From positions 1 through 40,196 of IMG/VR virus record IMGVR_UViG_3300029171_000021: a stretch of DNA of 40,196 nt, one strand, 5' to 3'. Numbering within the stretch: position 1 is the first letter of the stretch; every line of letters starts with the position of its first letter. Position numbers and translations under genes: made by a program. Shown here piece after piece: positions 1 to 40,196 of this stretch. Source of the DNA: a virus. The notes below the pieces were generated by a model. It worked only from the letters and a program-made list of their open reading frames with translations. It ran no database searches and was not told where the DNA came from.

Positions 1-99
1 ATATCAGCCAGATTGTCAATGTTCTAATTGCATCTGTCTGTCTGTATTCTATCTGTAAGTTGGAAGTCTGACTTTACCTGTAGTATCTCTTACATCTCT
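1..99. repeat. Terminal direct repeat, copy 1 (identical to 40098..40196); signature of a circular or terminally redundant genome closed by assembly
   Basis: Base-by-base comparison: the 99 nt atatcagccagattgtcaat...tacatctct at 1..99 are identical to the last 99 nt of the window. Confidence 0.95.
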
Positions 100-10503: not shown

Positions 10504-10736
10504 AGACTGTTAGCACCCCAGAAGAAGAGTGCTACTATGAGCTAGCCATCTTGTACGCCTCTGATATAGGAGCTGAGATAGATTATACATTGCTGGAATA
10601 TGCAGTGGTTACAGCAGCCATCAGACATAGGCTTAGAGGAGTAAATGCACAGTTCATAGAAGACAGTATTGAGGATTTGTGTCAGGCCGAAAACATTACA
10701 ATACATTTAATTATGGCACGTGACAAAATTAGTTGA
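10497..10736 (+). CDS. Hypothetical acidic protein (79 aa)
   Basis: ATG 10497 overlaps the previous stop (10501..10503). No motif recognised. Confidence 0.45.
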   Translation: MVETVSTPEEECYYELAILYASDIGAEIDYTLLEYAVVTAAIRHRLRGVNAQFIEDSIEDLCQAENITIHLIMARDKIS

Positions 10737-10761
10737 CATTCGCAAACAGATCAGTAATAAT
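10733..10761 (+). promoter_or_regulatory. Sigma70-like promoter P1 (TTGACA-N17-AATAAT) in front of the nucleotide cassette
   Basis: TTGACA at 10733..10738, exact 17-nt spacer, AATAAT at 10756..10761, 30 nt upstream of ATG 10791. A CACGTGACA motif lies just upstream (10717..10725). Confidence 0.6.
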
Positions 10762-10790
10762 TTATTTATAATCTCATAACAATCAGAACA

Positions 10791-11519
10791 ATGAGTAAAC
10801 GAAAGAAGCCAGTATTTAATCTCCTCATGCCTGCAGAAGTAGAGCTAGAGGGATTGAAGTTTGTTATCCGACCAGAGACAAGCGACTGGAAGAGTATCGC
10901 AGAAGTTGTAGGCCAGAGGGCTTACGAGAGACAATATTTCAAGGTAGAAGAAGGTGAGACTTGGCTTGACCTTGGAACATACGTTGGAGCATTCTCAGTA
11001 TGGGCAGCTAGCAAAGGGGCAAAGGTTATTGCCTTCGAGCCAGACAAATCTGCTTATGAGATGGCACAACAGAATATCATGTTCAACGAATTGTCAGACA
11101 GAGTAGAGCTGCTAAATGTAGCTGTAGACTTGGAGGCTGGCATTAAACCATTCTATGTCAACAGCATGAATGGTAATCTGTGGAGAAATAGCTTGATCCA
11201 TAAATGGGGCGGTGGCACAGAGACTCAAATCACAGCTGTAGATTGGAGAGCTTGGCTTAAAGATGGCATCTGTATTAAGATGGATATTGAAGGCTCAGAA
11301 GTTCCATTGCTTGAGAATCTTCCTGAAGATGTAAAGATCAAGAAGATGGTATTCGAGTATTCCTTTGACATTTGGCCAAGTATTGCCAAGTACAATGAAA
11401 TTATCGAGAAGCTTAAGACAAGATTCAGAGTAGTCAAGTATAAGAAAATCAAACCAGAAGTAACTGAATGGCCTCAGAGCTGGCAGCCAGCCAACGCCAT
11501 GATCTTCTGCTATAATTAA
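10791..11519 (+). CDS. SAM-dependent methyltransferase, FkbM-like (242 aa)
   Basis: Motif-I-like WLDLGTYVGAFSVWAASKGAKVIAFEPDKSAYEMAQQNI... and the later IKMDIEGSE resemble the FkbM (Methyltransf_21) family. Substrate unknown. Confidence 0.65.
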   Translation: MSKRKKPVFNLLMPAEVELEGLKFVIRPETSDWKSIAEVVGQRAYERQYFKVEEGETWLDLGTYVGAFSVWAASKGAKVIAFEPDKSAYEMAQQNIMFNELSDRVELLNVAVDLEAGIKPFYVNSMNGNLWRNSLIHKWGGGTETQITAVDWRAWLKDGICIKMDIEGSEVPLLENLPEDVKIKKMVFEYSFDIWPSIAKYNEIIEKLKTRFRVVKYKKIKPEVTEWPQSWQPANAMIFCYN

Positions 11520-11553
11520 CAGACAAATCTTTTATATCATAACCCAAACAAAC

Positions 11554-12129
11554 ATGAGACTTGTCATACTAGAGGGCGCTGACGGTGTAGGAAAGAGCAC
11601 TGCAATAGCCAACCTCGATTATCTTTACAAAGATAATGAGAATTACAAATTCTTCCACGTACCAAAGCCTGCCAAAGATTTGTCTATGAAGACAAAGATG
11701 GTGGAGTATTGGAGAGATATGCTGACTAAGGCTTTCTCAGGATACGAGTTTACACATGACTCAGTATTCATTATGGACAGATCACCAGTAGGGAATCTGA
11801 TCTATGGCAAGAGAAAGAAAGACCAGCCCTATCTTACTTACGACCAGTTAGTAGATATATTCGACTGGCTGGCCGTGGGTTTTGATAGAGTTGACGTTAT
11901 TCTTCTGCATTGCAGCGATGAAGTATTGAAGCAGCGTGTAGATTCTAGAGGTGACGACTATGTCAAGTCAGATGAGCTTATTGGCATTCAGAATGATTAC
12001 TTGGAAGTCTGGAAGAAGCTGGACAGGAATTACAAGATCAGAGGCGATATCTACTTCTGGAAAGCACCTAGAGACGGCACAGAGCACAGAATTGTAGATT
12101 ATATCCAAGATAAATTAGCAAGGAATTAA
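11554..12129 (+). CDS. Thymidylate kinase-like dNMP kinase (191 aa)
   Basis: P-loop ILEGADGVGKST (compare Tmk E-G-x-D-G-x-G-K-[ST]-T) and DRSPVGNLIYG (compare Tmk DR-x-x-x-S-x-x-AYQ). Confidence 0.7.
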   Translation: MRLVILEGADGVGKSTAIANLDYLYKDNENYKFFHVPKPAKDLSMKTKMVEYWRDMLTKAFSGYEFTHDSVFIMDRSPVGNLIYGKRKKDQPYLTYDQLVDIFDWLAVGFDRVDVILLHCSDEVLKQRVDSRGDDYVKSDELIGIQNDYLEVWKKLDRNYKIRGDIYFWKAPRDGTEHRIVDYIQDKLARN

Positions 12130-12149
12130 TAATTTAACCAAACAAACAA

Positions 12150-13109
12150 ATGCTATATTCGTACACAGATGCAGAGAGGATCAAGACTATCTATCCACAC
12201 CTAATAAGAGACTTGCTGACTTACGGCAAGGAAGCTGCAAAGCCTAGAGGCAAGGCGACCAAAGAGCAATACAATGTTGGCTTTGTTCTTACTGATGCTC
12301 ATAATAGCGTAGTCACTAGCCCACTACGCAAATTCAACTATGCTTACGCTGCTATTGAGATGGTAGGATTATTGCAGCATGGCATGAAGAATGTAGAGCC
12401 ATATACTTACTACAATTCAGTAATGAAGAGCTTCCTGAACACTGATACTAATCAGTGGGATGGTAGCTATGCTACACGCTTAACAATGTACGAGCAGCTA
12501 AGAGAGATGTACAAGATATTGAAAGCTGATCCAGATAGCAGACGTGCTGTAATCGGCATCTACAATCCACACCATGACTTCCATGAATACGAGTCAAAAG
12601 ATATCTGTTGCACTCTTAACCTGATCTTCAGGCTCAGGAACGGCAAATTGAGCCTGACTTGTACTATGAGAAGCAATGACATTCTTCTTGGCCTTCCATA
12701 CGACCTGACTCAATTCACATTCTTACAATCTGTCCTTGCTAAGTGGCTTGGAGTGGAGATGGGAGAATATTACCACTTCGCTGCAAACTTCCACGCTTAT
12801 GATACAGACTATGAGAAACTCTGGAATATTGCTAACGAAAATGGAAAGTACGAAGATCCAGAGACGTTCAGCAGCATGCCTGACTGGGATATCGCTGACA
12901 TTGATGAGACTTTCGCTGATGTACAGAGATTCTTTGCATGGGAGAAGTTCTTAAGAGACATGGACAAGCTTTCAGTTGAAGAATTATCCAAAGCCTTTAC
13001 TAACAATAATCTTGAGGCGATCAAATCTAAAGTGCTTACAGACCTCTTATTAAATACGATTATTCCATACATCGCAAAGAAAAAGCAGAAGTCTGCGAAA
13101 ATAGTTTGA
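12150..13109 (+). CDS. Thymidylate-synthase-fold pyrimidine C5 enzyme, dCMP hydroxymethylase-like (319 aa)
   Basis: LKADPDSRRAVIGIYNP ... DICCTLNLIFRLRNGKLSLTCTMRSNDILLGLPYDLTQF aligns with E. coli ThyA (NDPDSRR ... [36 protein letters not shown]). It also aligns with T4 gp42 as I recall it (NPDSRRG ... MCTNTVQY ... MRSNDVVFGFRNDYAWQ). Nucleophile Cys154 is at 12609..12611. Asp185 (12702..12704) occupies the position of ThyA Asn177 / T4 CH Asp179. Confidence 0.7.
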   Translation: MLYSYTDAERIKTIYPHLIRDLLTYGKEAAKPRGKATKEQYNVGFVLTDAHNSVVTSPLRKFNYAYAAIEMVGLLQHGMKNVEPYTYYNSVMKSFLNTDTNQWDGSYATRLTMYEQLREMYKILKADPDSRRAVIGIYNPHHDFHEYESKDICCTLNLIFRLRNGKLSLTCTMRSNDILLGLPYDLTQFTFLQSVLAKWLGVEMGEYYHFAANFHAYDTDYEKLWNIANENGKYEDPETFSSMPDWDIADIDETFADVQRFFAWEKFLRDMDKLSVEELSKAFTNNNLEAIKSKVLTDLLLNTIIPYIAKKKQKSAKIV

Positions 13110-13134
13110 CTTTGATTTTGGAACGTGAAATAAT
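13106..13134 (+). promoter_or_regulatory. Sigma70-like promoter P2 (TTGACT-N17-AATAAT); member of the conserved 30-bp element class
   Basis: tttgactttgattttggaacgtgaaataat at 13105..13134, 22 nt upstream of ATG 13157. Confidence 0.65.
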
Positions 13135-13156: not shown

Positions 13157-13720
13157 ATGGATAAAATACAAAGACAATTCAAAGTTAAGAGAGGAGATAG
13201 AACAATTCTATACCCATTCACAACTTACAGCGTTATCTTCCAAGGCAACATGCACAGCCAGATAGCCAATGCGCTGTATAAATATCTTGCTGCTGTTATG
13301 ACAGAAGGCTGTCCAGCAGAAGATAGGAGATCAGTAACGAGTGAGCCAGTATTGATGATTCCTACTAAGCAAGTCGCTGGAAGTGATCTATCACTAATAA
13401 CACAGAAGACTGACTATAAGGGTAATGGCAAATATCAGCATGATCTAGTGCAGAGTTATTTTCTGGATAATGACGCACACGCCTTAGCTATTGAAGTACC
13501 AGTATGGGATAACGAGCTACTCGGCCATATCGATCTTATCAGACTATTTCCAGACAAGATTCAGGTCTGTGACTTCAAGCCTAAAGCGCACAAAGAATCC
13601 AAGGCAGCCAGCCAAGTACATAGATATATTGATCTTCTGAGCCGTGCTACTTGGCTACCACGCCACCTATTCGAGGGTGTATATTTCGATGAACAATACG
13701 CATATTATATAACCAAATAA
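13157..13720 (+). CDS. PD-(D/E)XK nuclease, RecB/Cas4/lambda-Exo-like (187 aa)
   Basis: Motifs GHIDLIRL ... VCDFKPK ... ASQVHRY give D ... D-x-K ... Q-x-x-x-Y, the RecB-family nuclease signature. Directly upstream of the annealase-like gene. Confidence 0.55.
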   Translation: MDKIQRQFKVKRGDRTILYPFTTYSVIFQGNMHSQIANALYKYLAAVMTEGCPAEDRRSVTSEPVLMIPTKQVAGSDLSLITQKTDYKGNGKYQHDLVQSYFLDNDAHALAIEVPVWDNELLGHIDLIRLFPDKIQVCDFKPKAHKESKAASQVHRYIDLLSRATWLPRHLFEGVYFDEQYAYYITK

Positions 13721-13724
13721 TTAT

Positions 13725-14360
13725 ATGGCACAAGGTAAAGCAAGTCCAGTCAAAGCGCTGGCAAATGGCTACTTCTCCAAAGATGTTGTAGCAAAATTCG
13801 ACTCAGTTCCCTTTGAAGACAAACTCACAATCTTGCAGATCACTCCTGCAACATACATCAAGGAACGTGAGATTGGAGGCAAGACTGTAAAATTCATTGA
13901 ACACACTTATGCTAAGAAGTGCATGAATTTTATATTCAACTTCCTAGTAGATAGTGAAGTAGTGAGAGAAGACTGGAATGAATATCAAGAAGAATATTAC
14001 GATTATAAAGACAAGAACTGCAAGAAGTCTCAGGCAGGCAAAATCATTCCTATTAAGAAGGAAAGAACAGTGACAGAGGCAAGTGTAGTAATGAAATTCA
14101 CAATGACATATCCTGATGGATCTATCCACTCAAGAACAGTCAGGGCATCACATAAAGGCTATCCAAATCCAGCACTGACAAAATCCAACATCATGGAAGC
14201 TGCACACTCCAAGACATGGAGCAAGCTCGCAGCCACTTATGGAGTCGGTTCAGAACTGGATAAGGTTCAGGAAGACAAGGCTTACGAACAGCCAGAGGAA
14301 GTAGAAACAGTAGTAGAAGAAGCAACTGAAAAGTCATTTGCACCTAAAGTAGGATTTTAA
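13725..14360 (+). CDS. Rad52/Sak-like single-strand annealing protein (211 aa)
   Basis: YIKEREIGGKTVKFIEHTYAKKCMNFIFNF..., then VVMKFTMTYPDGSIHSRTVRASH ... EAAHSKTWSKLAATYGVGSEL, fit the Rad52-family pattern (R-x-x-g-g-x-x-l-x-Y-i ... N-x-x-F-g ... dG ... A-x-x-x-A-x-K-x-a-x-x-x-f-G-x-G). Acidic C-terminal tail. Confidence 0.5.
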   Translation: MAQGKASPVKALANGYFSKDVVAKFDSVPFEDKLTILQITPATYIKEREIGGKTVKFIEHTYAKKCMNFIFNFLVDSEVVREDWNEYQEEYYDYKDKNCKKSQAGKIIPIKKERTVTEASVVMKFTMTYPDGSIHSRTVRASHKGYPNPALTKSNIMEAAHSKTWSKLAATYGVGSELDKVQEDKAYEQPEEVETVVEEATEKSFAPKVGF

Positions 14361-14383
14361 TATATCATTAATAACAAACGAAC

Positions 14384-15142
14384 ATGTCAAATATACCTTA
14401 CAAAGATTATCTAGAAGCTGCAACAGTAGCAGAGACTAATCTTGTTCCATTTCAGCAACAGGCCAGTAGCATCATTGTTAAAGATGAAGCTACTCAGAGA
14501 CAGGCAGTAGAAGCAGTGAGCCAAGTCAAAGCTAATCTGAAGAGATTGGAAGACTTGAGAACCTTCTTTACTAAGCCTCTTAATGACCAAGTTAAGGCAA
14601 TCAATAACAAATTCAAGTTATTGGCTGAGCCTCTTGAAGGTCTTGAAGTTAAACTCAAATCCACCATTACTAAATACATGGTAGAACAAGAGAGACTAGC
14701 AAGAGAAGAAGCTGACAGAGTGGCCAAGGTTCAGGCAGAGGAAGCAAGAAAAGCAAGAGAGGCTGCAGAAGCAGCTGAACGAGCAGCAGTAGAATTGCGA
14801 AGAAAAGCAGAAGAAGAGGCTAAGAGTGAAGCCCAAAAGCAGAAGCTACTTGACCAAGCTGATAAAGTTGAGGCAGCAGCCAAGGAAGTTGAACAGGCAA
14901 TTATTGCTAATCCTACAGAAGTTGTAGAAGCGCCAAGCAAGACAGTCCGTTCTGATAGTGGCAAAGCCACCCTCAAGAAGACATGGACTTGGAAAGTAAC
15001 AGATGAAGCCCTCTTTATGGCCTGCCACCCTGAACTATTCATTATCGATACTAAGGCAGTCAACAAACTTATTGCCAATGGTACTAGAGTCATGGACGGC
15101 TTGGAAATTTACGAGGAAGCAAATATTTCAGTAACAGCATGA
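14384..15142 (+). CDS. Hypothetical coiled-coil protein (252 aa), A/E/K-rich centre
   Basis: Long ORF in the recombination module with a central EEARKAREAAEAAERAAVELRRKAEEEAK stretch. No confident family assignment. Confidence 0.5.
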   Translation: MSNIPYKDYLEAATVAETNLVPFQQQASSIIVKDEATQRQAVEAVSQVKANLKRLEDLRTFFTKPLNDQVKAINNKFKLLAEPLEGLEVKLKSTITKYMVEQERLAREEADRVAKVQAEEARKAREAAEAAERAAVELRRKAEEEAKSEAQKQKLLDQADKVEAAAKEVEQAIIANPTEVVEAPSKTVRSDSGKATLKKTWTWKVTDEALFMACHPELFIIDTKAVNKLIANGTRVMDGLEIYEEANISVTA

Positions 15143-19996: not shown

Positions 19997-20605
19997 ATGA
20001 GAGAACAAATAAAAACCTATCACGAATTCAAAGCTACACCAGAAGGACAAAAACTATACAAATCACCACGCTGGGGAAAGTTTAAACCAGCTCACGTTAA
20101 TCTTCACCAATGGGAGAATCTCTTAGGTGCTGACGTGAACAATATGAAGCACATGCTATTAACAGCAATATTAACAGGTCTGGCCATTCCTGAAGTCGGA
20201 GTGACTAAGGCAGAAGGGGAAGTTTTGTTATGGACAGCTATTACTCATGACTGGGCAGAAGCCGTAGTAGGTGATATTCCATTATATGATAAGACTGCAT
20301 CAGCTGAGCAAAGAGAACACGCTATTCTTAGACAGATGCTAGAGGCCAGATTGCCTAAGCAGGCTAATGGAATTATGGACGTGATTGGCGATACTCAGAG
20401 CAAGCTTGGAAAGATATTCCAAGGCATTGAGTTTGTTGGCTATGTCAGGACTCAACGCAAAGCAGGAGAGATAGCACACATGGTTAGAGATGAAGAATTA
20501 CAGGATAATCTGATAGCAATGTCGAAGACCAACATAGAACGCAACACCAAGATGGCCTATGCCAGATTACCAGTTGTGACTGTTGAGGGCTTGTTTAAGA
20601 GTTAG
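19997..20605 (+). CDS. HD-domain phosphohydrolase, YfbR-like 5'-deoxynucleotidase family (202 aa)
   Basis: NNMKHMLLTA ... LLWTAITHDWAEAVVGDIP gives H ... HD-x-x-E-x-x-x-GD-x-P as in the HD_3/YfbR family. Confidence 0.6.
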   Translation: MREQIKTYHEFKATPEGQKLYKSPRWGKFKPAHVNLHQWENLLGADVNNMKHMLLTAILTGLAIPEVGVTKAEGEVLLWTAITHDWAEAVVGDIPLYDKTASAEQREHAILRQMLEARLPKQANGIMDVIGDTQSKLGKIFQGIEFVGYVRTQRKAGEIAHMVRDEELQDNLIAMSKTNIERNTKMAYARLPVVTVEGLFKS

Positions 20606-40097: not shown

Positions 40098-40196
40098 ATA
40101 TCAGCCAGATTGTCAATGTTCTAATTGCATCTGTCTGTCTGTATTCTATCTGTAAGTTGGAAGTCTGACTTTACCTGTAGTATCTCTTACATCTCT
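40098..40196. repeat. Terminal direct repeat, copy 2 (identical to 1..99)
   Basis: See copy 1. It duplicates the 3' end of gene 49..426. Confidence 0.95.

What the first reader, a model, noticed from the sequence alone, without database searches (positions are those of the whole stretch)
10733..13109. Promoter-defined three-gene cassette (FkbM methyltransferase, dNMP kinase, dCMP-hydroxymethylase-like) suggesting a modified-cytosine DNA pathway in a small phage without its own polymerase
Promoter P1 (10733..10761) precedes three tightly spaced genes: an FkbM-type SAM methyltransferase (10791..11519), a Tmk-like dNMP kinase (11554..12129) and a ThyA-fold enzyme with cytosine-type specificity residues (12150..13109). 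The next promoter, P2, starts right after at 13106.

In T-even phages, dCMP hydroxymethylase plus a dNMP kinase feed 5-hydroxymethyl-dCTP into DNA. A companion enzyme removes the canonical nucleotide, and here an HD-domain nucleotidase (19997..20605) is a candidate.

Three things are unusual:
- The genome is only 40 kb, with no recognisable DNA polymerase, dCTPase/dUTPase or glycosyltransferase.
- An FkbM-family methyltransferase, normally an O-methyltransferase of sugars or small molecules, is co-transcribed.
- Such a combination could yield 5-hmC, 5-mC or a further derivatised cytosine. I do not know of a described pathway with this gene set.

The chemical outcome is pure inference.
Basis: partly seen in the sequence, partly recalled or inferred. 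Interest (0 to 1): 0.75.

Follow-up and report, generated by a model that had tools for sequence, protein, structure and literature searches.

The report
Phage 5-hydroxymethylcytosine pathway with methyl-capping enzyme
A complete 40-kb phage genome carries a three-gene unit that should replace cytosine with 5-hydroxymethylcytosine, plus a methyltransferase whose relatives almost always sit beside enzymes that make hydroxymethyl-pyrimidines, which suggests an undescribed methyl-capped DNA base.

Summary

- **ThyA homologue (12150-13109):** it matches T4 dCMP hydroxymethylase at every published diagnostic position. It is not a thymidylate synthase, dUMP hydroxymethylase, CMP enzyme or 5-hydroxy-dCMP synthase.
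- **Kinase (11554-12129):** a YorR-like nucleotide kinase, directly next to the ThyA homologue in all 10 contexts examined.
- **FkbM-like methyltransferase (10791-11519):** this is the new part. Its clade is tightly linked to enzymes that create 5-hydroxymethylpyrimidine:
  - Tet/JBP dioxygenase, usually with ParB, in 79 of 80 IMG/VR loci and 9 of 9 usable metagenome loci.
  - ThyA-type hydroxymethylase in the window, L008, L012 and L021.
  - None of 69 generic FkbM loci show either.
  - Two divergent homologues lack such a neighbour within 5 kb.
  - The clade has no DNA base-methyltransferase motifs.

Best reading: dCMP is converted to 5-hmdCMP, phosphorylated to 5-hmdCTP, incorporated by the host polymerase, and then O-methylated on DNA to 5-methoxymethylcytosine. 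The last step is inferred.

The genome is complete (99-bp terminal repeat). It has no polymerase, dCTPase or glycosyltransferase. The proposed HD-nucleotidase link is unsupported.

Verdict: a new variant of a known kind.

The parts
10733..10761 (+). Promoter-like site P1 (TTGACA-17 nt-AATAAT) in the 54-nt gap upstream of the methyltransferase gene
   Evidence: 11/12 match; the motif TTGACW-N16-18-AATAAT occurs only twice in the window (expected 0.09). Function not shown.
10791..11519 (+). FkbM-family class-I SAM methyltransferase (242 aa). Proposed 5-hydroxymethylpyrimidine O-methyltransferase acting on DNA.
   Evidence: Pfam PF05050 at 34.1 bits; phrog_28597 1.5e-37. SAM motif I DLGTYVG at residue 60 and FkbM hallmark KMDIEGSE at residue 163; no (D/N/S)PP(Y/F/W) or PCQ motif in any of 135 clade sequences. 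AF2 model pLDDT 94.8. Clade-specific linkage to Tet/JBP or ThyA-type hydroxymethylases.
11554..12129 (+). YorR-like (dNK/Tmk-type) P-loop nucleotide kinase (191 aa). Proposed 5-hmdCMP kinase.
   Evidence: Pfam dNK 29.7 bits; phrog_761 thymidylate kinase 1.7e-14. Only PDB relative is SPbeta YorR, 5.1e-9. Directly next to the ThyA homologue in 10 of 10 contexts, with conserved P-loop, DRSxxGNxIYG and LID motifs.
12150..13109 (+). ThyA-fold dCMP hydroxymethylase (5-hmdCMP synthase), 319 aa, with a C-terminal helical extension
   Evidence: Pfam PF00303 2.5e-21. Best PDB hit is MilA CMP hydroxymethylase at 5e-26, against 5e-14 for the best true thymidylate synthase. Active-site signature D151/C154/T155/M173/D177/D185 is identical to T4 gp42. 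Ser175 and Arg131 are the deoxyribose markers.
13106..13134 (+). Promoter-like site P2 (TTGACT-17 nt-AATAAT, TG-extended). It overlaps the ThyA stop codon and marks the downstream boundary of the cassette.

Best explanation
The cassette is a minimal pathway for replacing cytosine with a capped 5-hydroxymethylcytosine.

1. The ThyA homologue converts dCMP plus methylene-tetrahydrofolate and water into 5-hmdCMP.
2. The YorR-like kinase phosphorylates 5-hmdCMP to the diphosphate, and host nucleoside-diphosphate kinase makes 5-hmdCTP.
3. The host replicative polymerase, recruited by the phage DnaB-type helicase and primosome proteins, incorporates 5-hmdC. With no recognisable dCTPase the replacement is probably partial.
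4. The FkbM-like methyltransferase uses SAM to methylate the 5-CH2OH group on DNA, giving 5-methoxymethylcytosine. This would be a small cap that plays the role glucose plays in T4, hiding 5-hmC from modification-dependent nucleases.

Step 1 rests on diagnostic residues. Step 2 rests on family assignment and invariant linkage. Steps 3 and 4 are inferred, and the product of step 4 is the least certain.
For: **Step 1.** The T4 gp42-identical signature is present in the window and in all 18 relatives aligned. The published rules are N177D = dCMP substrate, L143D/E = hydroxymethyl product, D169N = 5-hydroxy-dCMP synthase (PMC13326640); positions 177 and 147 are the top discriminators in viromes (PMC8670742); Ser167/Arg126 mark deoxyribose (PMC5175136).

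**Step 2.** The kinase is adjacent in 10 of 10 contexts. Thymidylate-kinase-like 'nucleotide kinases' (YorR the top structural hit for DLP3's) lie one or a few genes from the ThyA homologues of DLP3, RB69 and RL38J1.

**Step 3.** The complete genome has no polymerase. E. coli expressing T4 hydroxymethylase plus a kinase puts 5-hmdC into plasmid DNA (PMC13326640).

**Step 4.**
- The clade is adjacent to Tet/JBP (with or without ParB) in MED4-184 and HTVC112P, in 79 of 80 IMG/VR loci, in L098 and in 9 of 9 usable metagenome loci.
- It is adjacent to ThyA-type hydroxymethylase in the window, L008, L012 and L021.
- None of 69 generic FkbM loci show either neighbour. Pfam confirms the local HMM calls.
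- ThyA-context methyltransferases form one clade nested among dioxygenase-context ones.
- The only chemical feature the two contexts share is the 5-hydroxymethyl group.
- FkbM enzymes are O-methyltransferases (established knowledge), and base-methyltransferase motifs are absent.
- In relatives the same slot holds known hypermodification enzymes: HMUDK, AADT, a PLP enzyme, GNAT.
- 5-hmC carbamoyltransferase is a precedent for non-sugar O-capping.
Against: - No chemistry was measured.
- Two clade members on 73-75 kb contigs have no Tet/JBP or ThyA gene within 5 kb, so the linkage is not absolute.
- In L012 and L021 the methyltransferase is coupled to an HMUDK-type DNA kinase, so there it may act on a phosphorylated or otherwise altered intermediate.
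- The fold search gives only a generic class-I methyltransferase core (TM <= 0.51) and says nothing about substrate.
- No dCTPase or other means of depleting dCTP was found, so the extent of replacement is unknown.
- Many of the 80 IMG/VR loci are close relatives: 13 clusters at 50% identity across the 88 methyltransferases compared (80 IMG/VR loci plus 8 others).
- No natural methoxymethyl-pyrimidine in DNA is on record in the library searched.
Confidence: 0.55

Rival explanations
1. The phage makes plain 5-hydroxymethylcytosine DNA through the hydroxymethylase and kinase. The methyltransferase is an unrelated passenger that methylates some other target, such as a protein, RNA, small molecule or host component.
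For: FkbM-family enzymes are very diverse and mostly act on sugars and small molecules. Two clade members lack a 5-hm source within 5 kb. The fold search is uninformative on substrate.
Against: Clade-specific adjacency to two unrelated kinds of 5-hm-pyrimidine-forming enzyme: 80 of 80 IMG/VR loci, 9 of 9 metagenome loci and 4 ThyA contexts, against 0 of 69 generic FkbM loci. The gene sits in the slot used by hypermodification enzymes in relatives. It shares a promoter-like site with the other two genes.
Confidence: 0.17
2. The methyltransferase acts before replication on the free nucleotide (5-hmdCMP, 5-hmdCDP or 5-hmdCTP). The kinase and polymerase then handle the already methylated nucleotide.
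For: The gene order MT-kinase-hydroxymethylase lies in one putative operon. The 5-hmC carbamoyltransferase acts on 5-hmdCTP as well as on DNA (PMC8670742).
Against: In most of the clade the 5-hm group is made by a Tet/JBP dioxygenase that works on DNA, so no 5-hm nucleotide pool exists there (PMC13229309). A host polymerase would have to accept the bulkier triphosphate.
Confidence: 0.1
3. The methyltransferase depends on 5-hm-pyrimidine DNA but performs different chemistry. Options are methylation of a ring or exocyclic nitrogen, methylation of a 5-phosphomethyl intermediate made by HMUDK, or transfer of another part of SAM such as the aminocarboxypropyl group.
For: HMUDK and the methyltransferase are translationally coupled in L012 and L021. 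There are weak TRM5/TYW2-type Rossmann matches, and TYW2 is among the fold hits.
Against: The window has no HMUDK. Amino-methyltransferase motif IV is absent in all 135 sequences. The TYW2 similarity covers only the SAM-binding core.
Confidence: 0.13
4. The ThyA homologue is a dCMP methylase giving 5-methylcytosine as in phage XP12, or it is an ordinary thymidylate synthase.
For: The ThyA fold and catalytic Cys are present. An N177D mutant of thymidylate synthase methylates dCMP (cited in PMC8670742).
Against: Asp replaces Leu143, the hydroxymethylase marker. Thr147 and Met165 match T4 gp42. The best solved relative is a hydroxymethylase. Relatives pair the enzyme with HMUDK, which needs a hydroxymethyl group.
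Confidence: 0.04

Closest known systems
T-even phage 5-hmC pathway (T4 gp42 dCMP hydroxymethylase, gp1 dNMP kinase, gp56 dCTPase, alpha/beta-glucosyltransferases)
   Same: Pre-replicative hydroxymethylation of dCMP by a ThyA homologue with an identical active-site signature. A phage kinase follows. The 5-CH2OH group is then capped after replication.
   Different: The kinase is YorR/dNK-like and is not a gp1 homologue. There is no dCTPase and no phage polymerase. The proposed cap is a methyl group from SAM, not a sugar. The genome is 40 kb and looks lambdoid (HTH regulators, RusA, NinB).
5-hmC carbamoyltransferase pathway giving 5-carbamoyloxymethylcytosine (MetaGPA; PMC8670742)
   Same: An Asp177-type ThyA homologue is paired with a non-glycosyl transferase that derivatises the hydroxyl of 5-hmC.
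   Different: The transferase family and donor differ (carbamoyl phosphate and ATP versus SAM). Those clusters usually carry MazG-like and deaminase genes, which the window lacks.
ParB-dependent and ParB-independent phage T-dioxygenase (5mYOX) clusters (PMC13229309)
   Same: The same methyltransferase clade sits next to Tet/JBP, with or without ParB, for example in Prochlorococcus phages MED4-184, MED4-117 and P-HS2 and Pelagibacter phage HTVC112P. That paper lists 'O-methyltransferases' among co-occurring domains.
   Different: There the 5-hm group is made on DNA from thymine, giving 5-hmU. Here it is made on dCMP before replication, giving 5-hmC. No product of the O-methyltransferase has been reported.
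Thymidine hypermodification clusters (dUMP hydroxymethylase, 5-HMUDK, aGPT-Pplase/AADT; PMC5889632, PMC8989533)
   Same: Relatives of this phage carry HMUDK_hel, HMUD1, AADT, PLP-enzyme, GATase and GNAT genes in the same slot upstream of the kinase-ThyA pair.
   Different: The window has none of these genes. The ThyA homologues of this lineage have Asp177 (cytosine type), whereas SPO1, SP10 and Montesquieu have Asn.
5-hydroxy-dCMP synthase clusters of RB69, DLP3 and RL38J1 (PMC13326640)
   Same: A cytosine-type ThyA homologue lies close to a thymidylate-kinase-like 'nucleotide kinase' (YorR the top structural hit for DLP3's), followed by capping on DNA.
   Different: Those enzymes carry D169N and make 5-hydroxycytosine with a flavin. 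The window enzyme keeps Asp169. Their caps are arabinose or hexoses.

Membership tests
dCMP hydroxymethylase (T4 gp42-type 5-hmdCMP synthase) | ThyA fold with catalytic Cys146 and Glu58, Tyr94, Arg166, His207, Tyr209 (E. coli numbering) | tested here: met
   PF00303 at 76.5 bits. C154, E70, Y107, R174, H215 and Y217 are conserved.
dCMP hydroxymethylase (T4 gp42-type 5-hmdCMP synthase) | Asp at position 177 (cytosine rather than uracil) | tested here: met
   D185 aligns with T4 D179 and MilA D186. SPO1, SP10, Montesquieu and E. coli have Asn.
dCMP hydroxymethylase (T4 gp42-type 5-hmdCMP synthase) | Acidic residue at position 143 (water access, hydroxymethyl product rather than methyl) | tested here: met
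   D151. Rule taken from PMC13326640.
dCMP hydroxymethylase (T4 gp42-type 5-hmdCMP synthase) | Ser167 and Arg126 (deoxyribose rather than ribose preference) | tested here: met
   S175 and R131. Rule taken from PMC5175136.
dCMP hydroxymethylase (T4 gp42-type 5-hmdCMP synthase) | Formation of 5-hmdCMP from dCMP and methylene-THF | not testable with these tools
   Needs an enzyme assay or co-expression followed by LC-MS.
5-hydroxy-dCMP synthase (RB69 gp48 type) | Asn at position 169 (D169N) | tested here: not met
   D177 is retained, and the column is invariant Asp in alignment A1. Rule.
Canonical thymidylate synthase / dUMP hydroxymethylase | Asn177, plus Leu143 and His147 for thymidylate synthase | tested here: not met
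   The window has D, D and T at positions 177, 143 and 147.
MilA/BcmA-type CMP hydroxymethylase | Ala at TS position 167 and Lys at TS position 126 | tested here: not met
   The window has Ser175 and Arg131.
FkbM-family methyltransferase (Pfam PF05050) | Profile match above the curated cut-off, SAM motif I, and the K-x-D-x-E-G-x-E motif | tested here: met
   34.1 bits against a cut-off of 22.7. DLGTYVG and KMDIEGSE are present. The confident model has a class-I fold.
FkbM-family methyltransferase (Pfam PF05050) | SAM-dependent O-methylation of a hydroxyl group | not testable with these tools
   Inferred from family knowledge and genomic linkage only.
DNA base methyltransferases (N6A/N4C amino-MTases, C5-MTases) | Motif IV (D/N/S)PP(Y/F/W), or the PCQ and ENV catalytic motifs | tested here: not met
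   0 of 135 clade sequences have motif IV or PCQ, and the window protein has no ENV.
T4 gp1-type dNMP kinase | Sequence homology to gp1 (PDB 1DEK/1DEL) | tested here: not met
   The PDB search at E <= 1 returns YorR as the only credible relative (plus two chance-level matches, E > 0.1) and no gp1. The window kinase may work like gp1 but is not a member of its family.
YorR-like dNK/Tmk-type P-loop nucleotide kinase | P-loop, DR(S/Y) motif, LID arginines, and a profile match | tested here: met
   dNK 29.7 bits against a cut-off of 27. YorR 5.1e-9. Motifs are conserved in 10 orthologues.
5-HMUDK / AADT thymidine-type hypermodification system | Presence of an HMUDK_hel kinase and an aGPT-Pplase or AADT transferase | tested here: not met
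   Absent from the window. Present in relatives L005, L007, L010-L013 and L021.

The most novel reading that the evidence does not exclude
The FkbM-like clade is a family of DNA 5-hydroxymethylpyrimidine O-methyltransferases. This phage's DNA would then contain 5-methoxymethylcytosine, and the many marine ParB/Tet-JBP phages (P-HS2, MED4-184, HTVC112P and relatives) would contain 5-methoxymethyluracil. Neither base has been described in natural DNA. The enzyme would have been recruited interchangeably by the pre-replicative (ThyA) and post-replicative (dioxygenase) routes. The wider lineage of about 40-kb phages would also make kinase- and amino-acid-transferase-dependent hypermodifications on cytosine rather than thymine.
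Probability: 0.45. Interest if true: 0.85.

Novelty: new variant of a known kind. Interest (0 to 1): 0.72.

Why it matters
**A new DNA base.** If the methyltransferase caps 5-hmC or 5-hmU with a methyl group, that adds a new natural DNA base. It also adds a fourth kind of cap, after sugars, amino acids or polyamines, and carbamoyl, to the phage anti-restriction repertoire.

**A minimal pathway.** Three genes, with no phage polymerase and no dCTPase, would show how little a small phage needs to change its DNA chemistry using the host replisome.

**Ecological reach.** The same enzyme clade is abundant in marine phages of Prochlorococcus and Pelagibacter. The modification could therefore be widespread, and it can be tested in cultured phages.

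**A possible tool.** An enzyme that methylates 5-hmC selectively would be useful for 5-hmC mapping, as beta-glucosyltransferase already is.

**A second lead.** The relatives pair cytosine-type hydroxymethylases with HMUDK and AADT. This points to a set of cytosine hypermodifications parallel to the known thymidine ones.

Tried and rejected
- **No near relatives by DNA or single-protein patterns.** Megablast of the cassette against 50,697 phage records found nothing. Single-sequence pattern scans of IMG/VR with the ThyA and methyltransferase proteins also found nothing. Alignment-based scans were needed.
- **dUMP enzyme considered and rejected.** Relatives carry the thymidine-hypermodification toolkit, so I considered that the ThyA homologue acts on dUMP. 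All family members have Asp177 and Thr147, like T4 gp42.
- **5-hydroxy-dCMP synthase rejected.** Asp169 is retained.
- **CMP-specific MilA-like enzyme rejected.** The window enzyme has Ser and Arg, not Ala and Lys.
- **DNA kinase role for the kinase rejected.** HMUDK is a separate gene in relatives, and the window kinase is dNK/YorR-like.
- **HD-domain protein as pathway member: unsupported.** No homologue was found in the held parts of the relatives' loci.
- **Ordinary DNA methyltransferase rejected.** The clade has no catalytic motifs of that kind.
- **Structure comparison did not help.** The fold search gave only generic class-I hits.
- **Supplementary data unavailable.** The supplements of PMC13229309 are not held, so I could not check whether PF05050 is their 'O-MT'.
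- **Literature searches found nothing.** No paper in the held library combines FkbM with phage ThyA homologues, and none describes a methoxymethyl-pyrimidine in DNA.


Full report
**Observation.** All are on the + strand, separated by 34 and 20 nt. Pfam assigns Methyltransf_21/FkbM (34.1 bits, cut-off 22.7), dNK (29.7 bits, cut-off 27) and Thymidylat_synt (76.5 bits), and PHROGs agree. P1 (TTGACA-17-AATAAT, 10733-10761) and P2 (TTGACT-17-AATAAT, 13106-13134) are real consensus matches in intergenic positions. This exact motif occurs only twice in the window against 0.09 expected. The total number of promoter-like hits is not above shuffles, so promoter function is plausible but not shown. The window has an exact 99-bp terminal direct repeat, so it is a complete, circularly assembled genome of about 40.1 kb. 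A Pfam/PHROG survey of 57 ORFs finds a DnaB-type helicase, DUF1376/primosomal protein, RusA, NinB, an exonuclease, HTH regulators, an HD_3 protein, endolysin, portal, terminase and capsid. It finds no DNA polymerase, dCTPase/dUTPase/MazG, deaminase or glycosyltransferase.

**The ThyA homologue is a dCMP hydroxymethylase.** Its best solved relative is MilA, a CMP 5-hydroxymethylase (5e-26), well ahead of any true thymidylate synthase (5e-14).

| Enzyme | Residues at TS positions 143/146/147/165/169/177 |
|---|---|
| Window enzyme and every relative | D C T M D D (one relative, P0013, has S147 and I165) |
| T4 gp42 | D C T M D D |
| dUMP hydroxymethylases (SPO1, SP10, Montesquieu) | D C N N/I D N |
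| E. coli ThyA | L C H Q D N |

The published rules are:
- N177D selects dCMP, L143D/E admits water and so gives hydroxymethyl rather than methyl, and D169N marks flavin-dependent 5-hydroxy-dCMP synthases (PMC13326640).
- Positions 177 and 147 are the top discriminators between modified and unmodified virome contigs (PMC8670742).
- Ser167 and Arg126 mark deoxyribose preference, where MilA has Ala and Lys (PMC5175136). The window enzyme has Ser175 and Arg131.

Every sequence-level test for a dCMP hydroxymethylase is met. The tests for thymidylate synthase, dUMP hydroxymethylase, CMP hydroxymethylase and 5-hydroxy-dCMP synthase fail.

**The kinase.** Its only credible solved relative is the SPbeta prophage protein YorR (5.1e-9). 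Cultured-phage homologues are YorR-like proteins annotated as thymidylate or deoxynucleoside kinases. It is not a T4 gp1 homologue. In all 10 genomic contexts of this ThyA family, a homologous 160-192-aa kinase lies directly next to the ThyA gene. These are the window, L005, L007-L013 and L021. The kinases share a P-loop, a DRSxxGNxIYG motif and a LID region. Relatives encode HMUDK as a separate gene, so the small kinase is not the DNA kinase. Thymidylate-kinase-like 'nucleotide kinases' also lie one or a few genes from the ThyA homologues of DLP3, RB69 and RL38J1, and YorR is the top structural hit for DLP3's. The most economical role is phosphorylation of 5-hmdCMP. This is inferred.

**A variable slot upstream of the conserved pair.** The ThyA family has about 20 members at 50-87% identity, mostly on 38-48 kb contigs. 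Upstream of, and occasionally just downstream of, the kinase-ThyA pair, the gene content changes:

| Locus | Genes in the slot |
|---|---|
| Window, L008 | Methyltransferase alone |
| L012 | HMUDK_hel + Methyltransf_21 |
| L021 | HMUDK_hel + methyltransferase |
| L005, L007 | HMUDK_hel |
| L010 | HMUDK_hel + HMUD1 + two unknown genes |
| L011 | HMUDK_hel + HMUD1, with a PLP enzyme and AADT downstream |
| L013 | HMUDK_hel + GATase + AADT + HMUD1 + GNAT |

So the methyltransferase occupies the position that relatives use for post-replicative hypermodification enzymes. The window itself has none of HMUDK, AADT, HMUD1, Tet/JBP or ParB.

**The methyltransferase clade tracks 5-hydroxymethylpyrimidine.** Its closest homologues in cultured phages are in Prochlorococcus phages MED4-117, MED4-184 and P-HS2 and in Pelagibacter phage HTVC112P. 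None of these has a ThyA homologue nearby. However, Pfam shows the methyltransferase there is flanked by a ParB_N protein and a Tet/JBP dioxygenase. In HTVC112P, gp17 is ParB_N (2.9e-10) and gp18 is Tet_JBP (1.1e-29). In MED4-184, CPAG_00033, annotated 'DNA methylase', is really ParB_N, and CPAG_00035 is Tet_JBP. ParB-dependent phage dioxygenases oxidise thymine in DNA to 5-hmU (PMC13229309).

I then measured the linkage more widely:
- An alignment-based scan of IMG/VR found at least 352 relatives. Of the best 80 loci, 79 have an adjacent Tet/JBP gene, 74 of them with ParB, in three different gene orders. The remaining locus (L021) has kinase-ThyA, then a deaminase-like gene and small ORFs, then HMUDK-MT.
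- Pfam confirmed representatives of each type, and precomputed Pfam for L098 agrees.
- In a metagenome scan, all 9 clade members with usable flanks have Tet/JBP and/or ParB adjacent (8 have Tet/JBP; L110 is cut off within the methyltransferase gene and shows only ParB). None of 69 distant, generic FkbM loci has any of these genes.
- Exceptions: two more divergent homologues (36-40% identity) on 73-75 kb contigs have no such neighbour within 5 kb.
- Redundancy is substantial. The 88 methyltransferases compared (the 80 IMG/VR loci plus 8 others) collapse to 13 clusters at 50% identity, of which 11 have a 5-hm source adjacent.
- In a neighbour-joining tree the four ThyA-context methyltransferases form one clade nested among dioxygenase-context ones.

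**What the methyltransferase probably does.** The two contexts differ in enzyme family, in the base (T versus C) and in timing (on DNA versus on dCMP). The only chemical feature they share is the 5-CH2OH group. Dioxygenase contexts could in principle offer formyl or carboxyl groups, but the ThyA context cannot. FkbM-family enzymes are O-methyltransferases (established knowledge). None of 135 clade sequences has the amino-methyltransferase motif IV or the C5-methyltransferase PCQ motif, and 113 have the FkbM K-x-D-x-E-G-x-E motif. The AlphaFold model is confident (pLDDT 94.8) and shows a class-I SAM fold without a close structural relative (TM <= 0.51), which says nothing about substrate. In most of the clade the substrate can only exist in DNA, so action on DNA is the parsimonious reading here too. 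I therefore propose SAM-dependent O-methylation of 5-hmC in DNA, giving 5-methoxymethylcytosine. This product is inferred. The HMUDK-MT coupling in L012 and L021 leaves room for other chemistry in those phages.

**Remaining steps and weak points.** Incorporation by the host polymerase is inferred from the complete genome lacking a polymerase. It is also consistent with E. coli incorporating 5-hmdC into plasmids when T4 hydroxymethylase and a kinase are expressed (PMC13326640). No dCTP-depleting enzyme was recognised, so replacement may be partial. The HD_3 protein (19997-20605) is a genuine HD-domain protein. It has no counterpart in the held parts of the relatives' loci, and nothing links it to the pathway.

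**Comparison with what is known, and novelty.** The hydroxymethylase-plus-kinase core is a new member of the T-even type of 5-hmC pathway, placed in an unusually small, polymerase-less genome. Capping the hydroxyl with something other than a sugar has one precedent, 5-hmC carbamoyltransferase (PMC8670742). 'O-methyltransferases' were listed among domains co-occurring with phage 5mYOX dioxygenases, without a product or family being named (PMC13229309). I found no paper in the held library that links FkbM enzymes to phage ThyA homologues, and none that describes a methoxymethyl-pyrimidine in DNA. That library is incomplete. I rate this a new variant of a known kind, with interest 0.72.

| Claim | Confidence |
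|---|---|
| ThyA homologue is a dCMP hydroxymethylase | about 0.9 |
| Kinase is a 5-hmdCMP kinase | about 0.75 |
| Methyltransferase acts on 5-hm-pyrimidine | about 0.65 |
| Product is the methyl ether | about 0.45-0.5 |

Noticed in passing
L005, L007, L010, L011, L012, L013, L021 (relatives of the window): Phages of about 40 kb pair a cytosine-type (Asp177, Thr147) ThyA hydroxymethylase with HMUDK_hel, HMUD1, AADT (PF18724), a PLP enzyme, GATase and GNAT genes. This is the thymidine-hypermodification toolkit, apparently working on 5-hmC. It would predict kinase- and amino-acid-transferase-derived cytosine hypermodifications.
   Followed up: partly
L001 5363-7487 (Prochlorococcus phage MED4-184) and L002 4468-6690 (Pelagibacter phage HTVC112P): Cultured marine phages carry a ParB_N, FkbM-like MT and Tet/JBP triad. 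MED4-184 CPAG_00033 is annotated 'DNA methylase' but matches ParB_N. HTVC112P gp18 is annotated 'DnaJ/SNF2' but matches Tet_JBP at 1.1e-29. These phages are tractable systems for finding the methyltransferase's product.
   Followed up: partly
window 1-99 and 40098-40196: There is an exact 99-bp terminal direct repeat, typical of a circular assembly. The window is a complete genome of about 40,097 bp.
   Followed up: yes
window 10762-10790, 11520-11553, 12130-12149: The leaders of all three genes are A/C-rich (for example ...ccaaacaaacaaATG) and have no Shine-Dalgarno sequence, while the promoter-like sites are sigma-70-like. This may be a clue to the host, which is unidentified.
   Followed up: no
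It has no tblastn counterpart in the held parts of nine related loci, and its role is open.
   Followed up: partly
L021 2671-3123: A dCMP/cytidine deaminase-like gene (PF00383, 4.4e-7) lies directly downstream of the cytosine-type ThyA homologue. The MetaGPA study reported this co-occurrence for cytosine-modifying contigs.
   Followed up: no
L005 8001-8924 (protein P0007): This relative has Ala and Thr at TS positions 167 and 168 ('MRATD'). That is the MilA-like Ala associated with tolerance of ribonucleotides, unlike the rest of the family.
   Followed up: no
L099 5001-5798 and L100 5001-5723: Two divergent members of the methyltransferase clade, on 73-75 kb contigs, have no Tet/JBP or ThyA gene within 5 kb. 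They are exceptions to the linkage. I could not examine the rest of those contigs.
   Followed up: no
window 13157-15142: The genes after P2 are conserved downstream of the ThyA gene in L008, L009 and L013: a weak PD-(D/E)XK match, then 211-aa and 252-aa proteins. They look like a recombination module and are not part of the modification cassette.
   Followed up: partly
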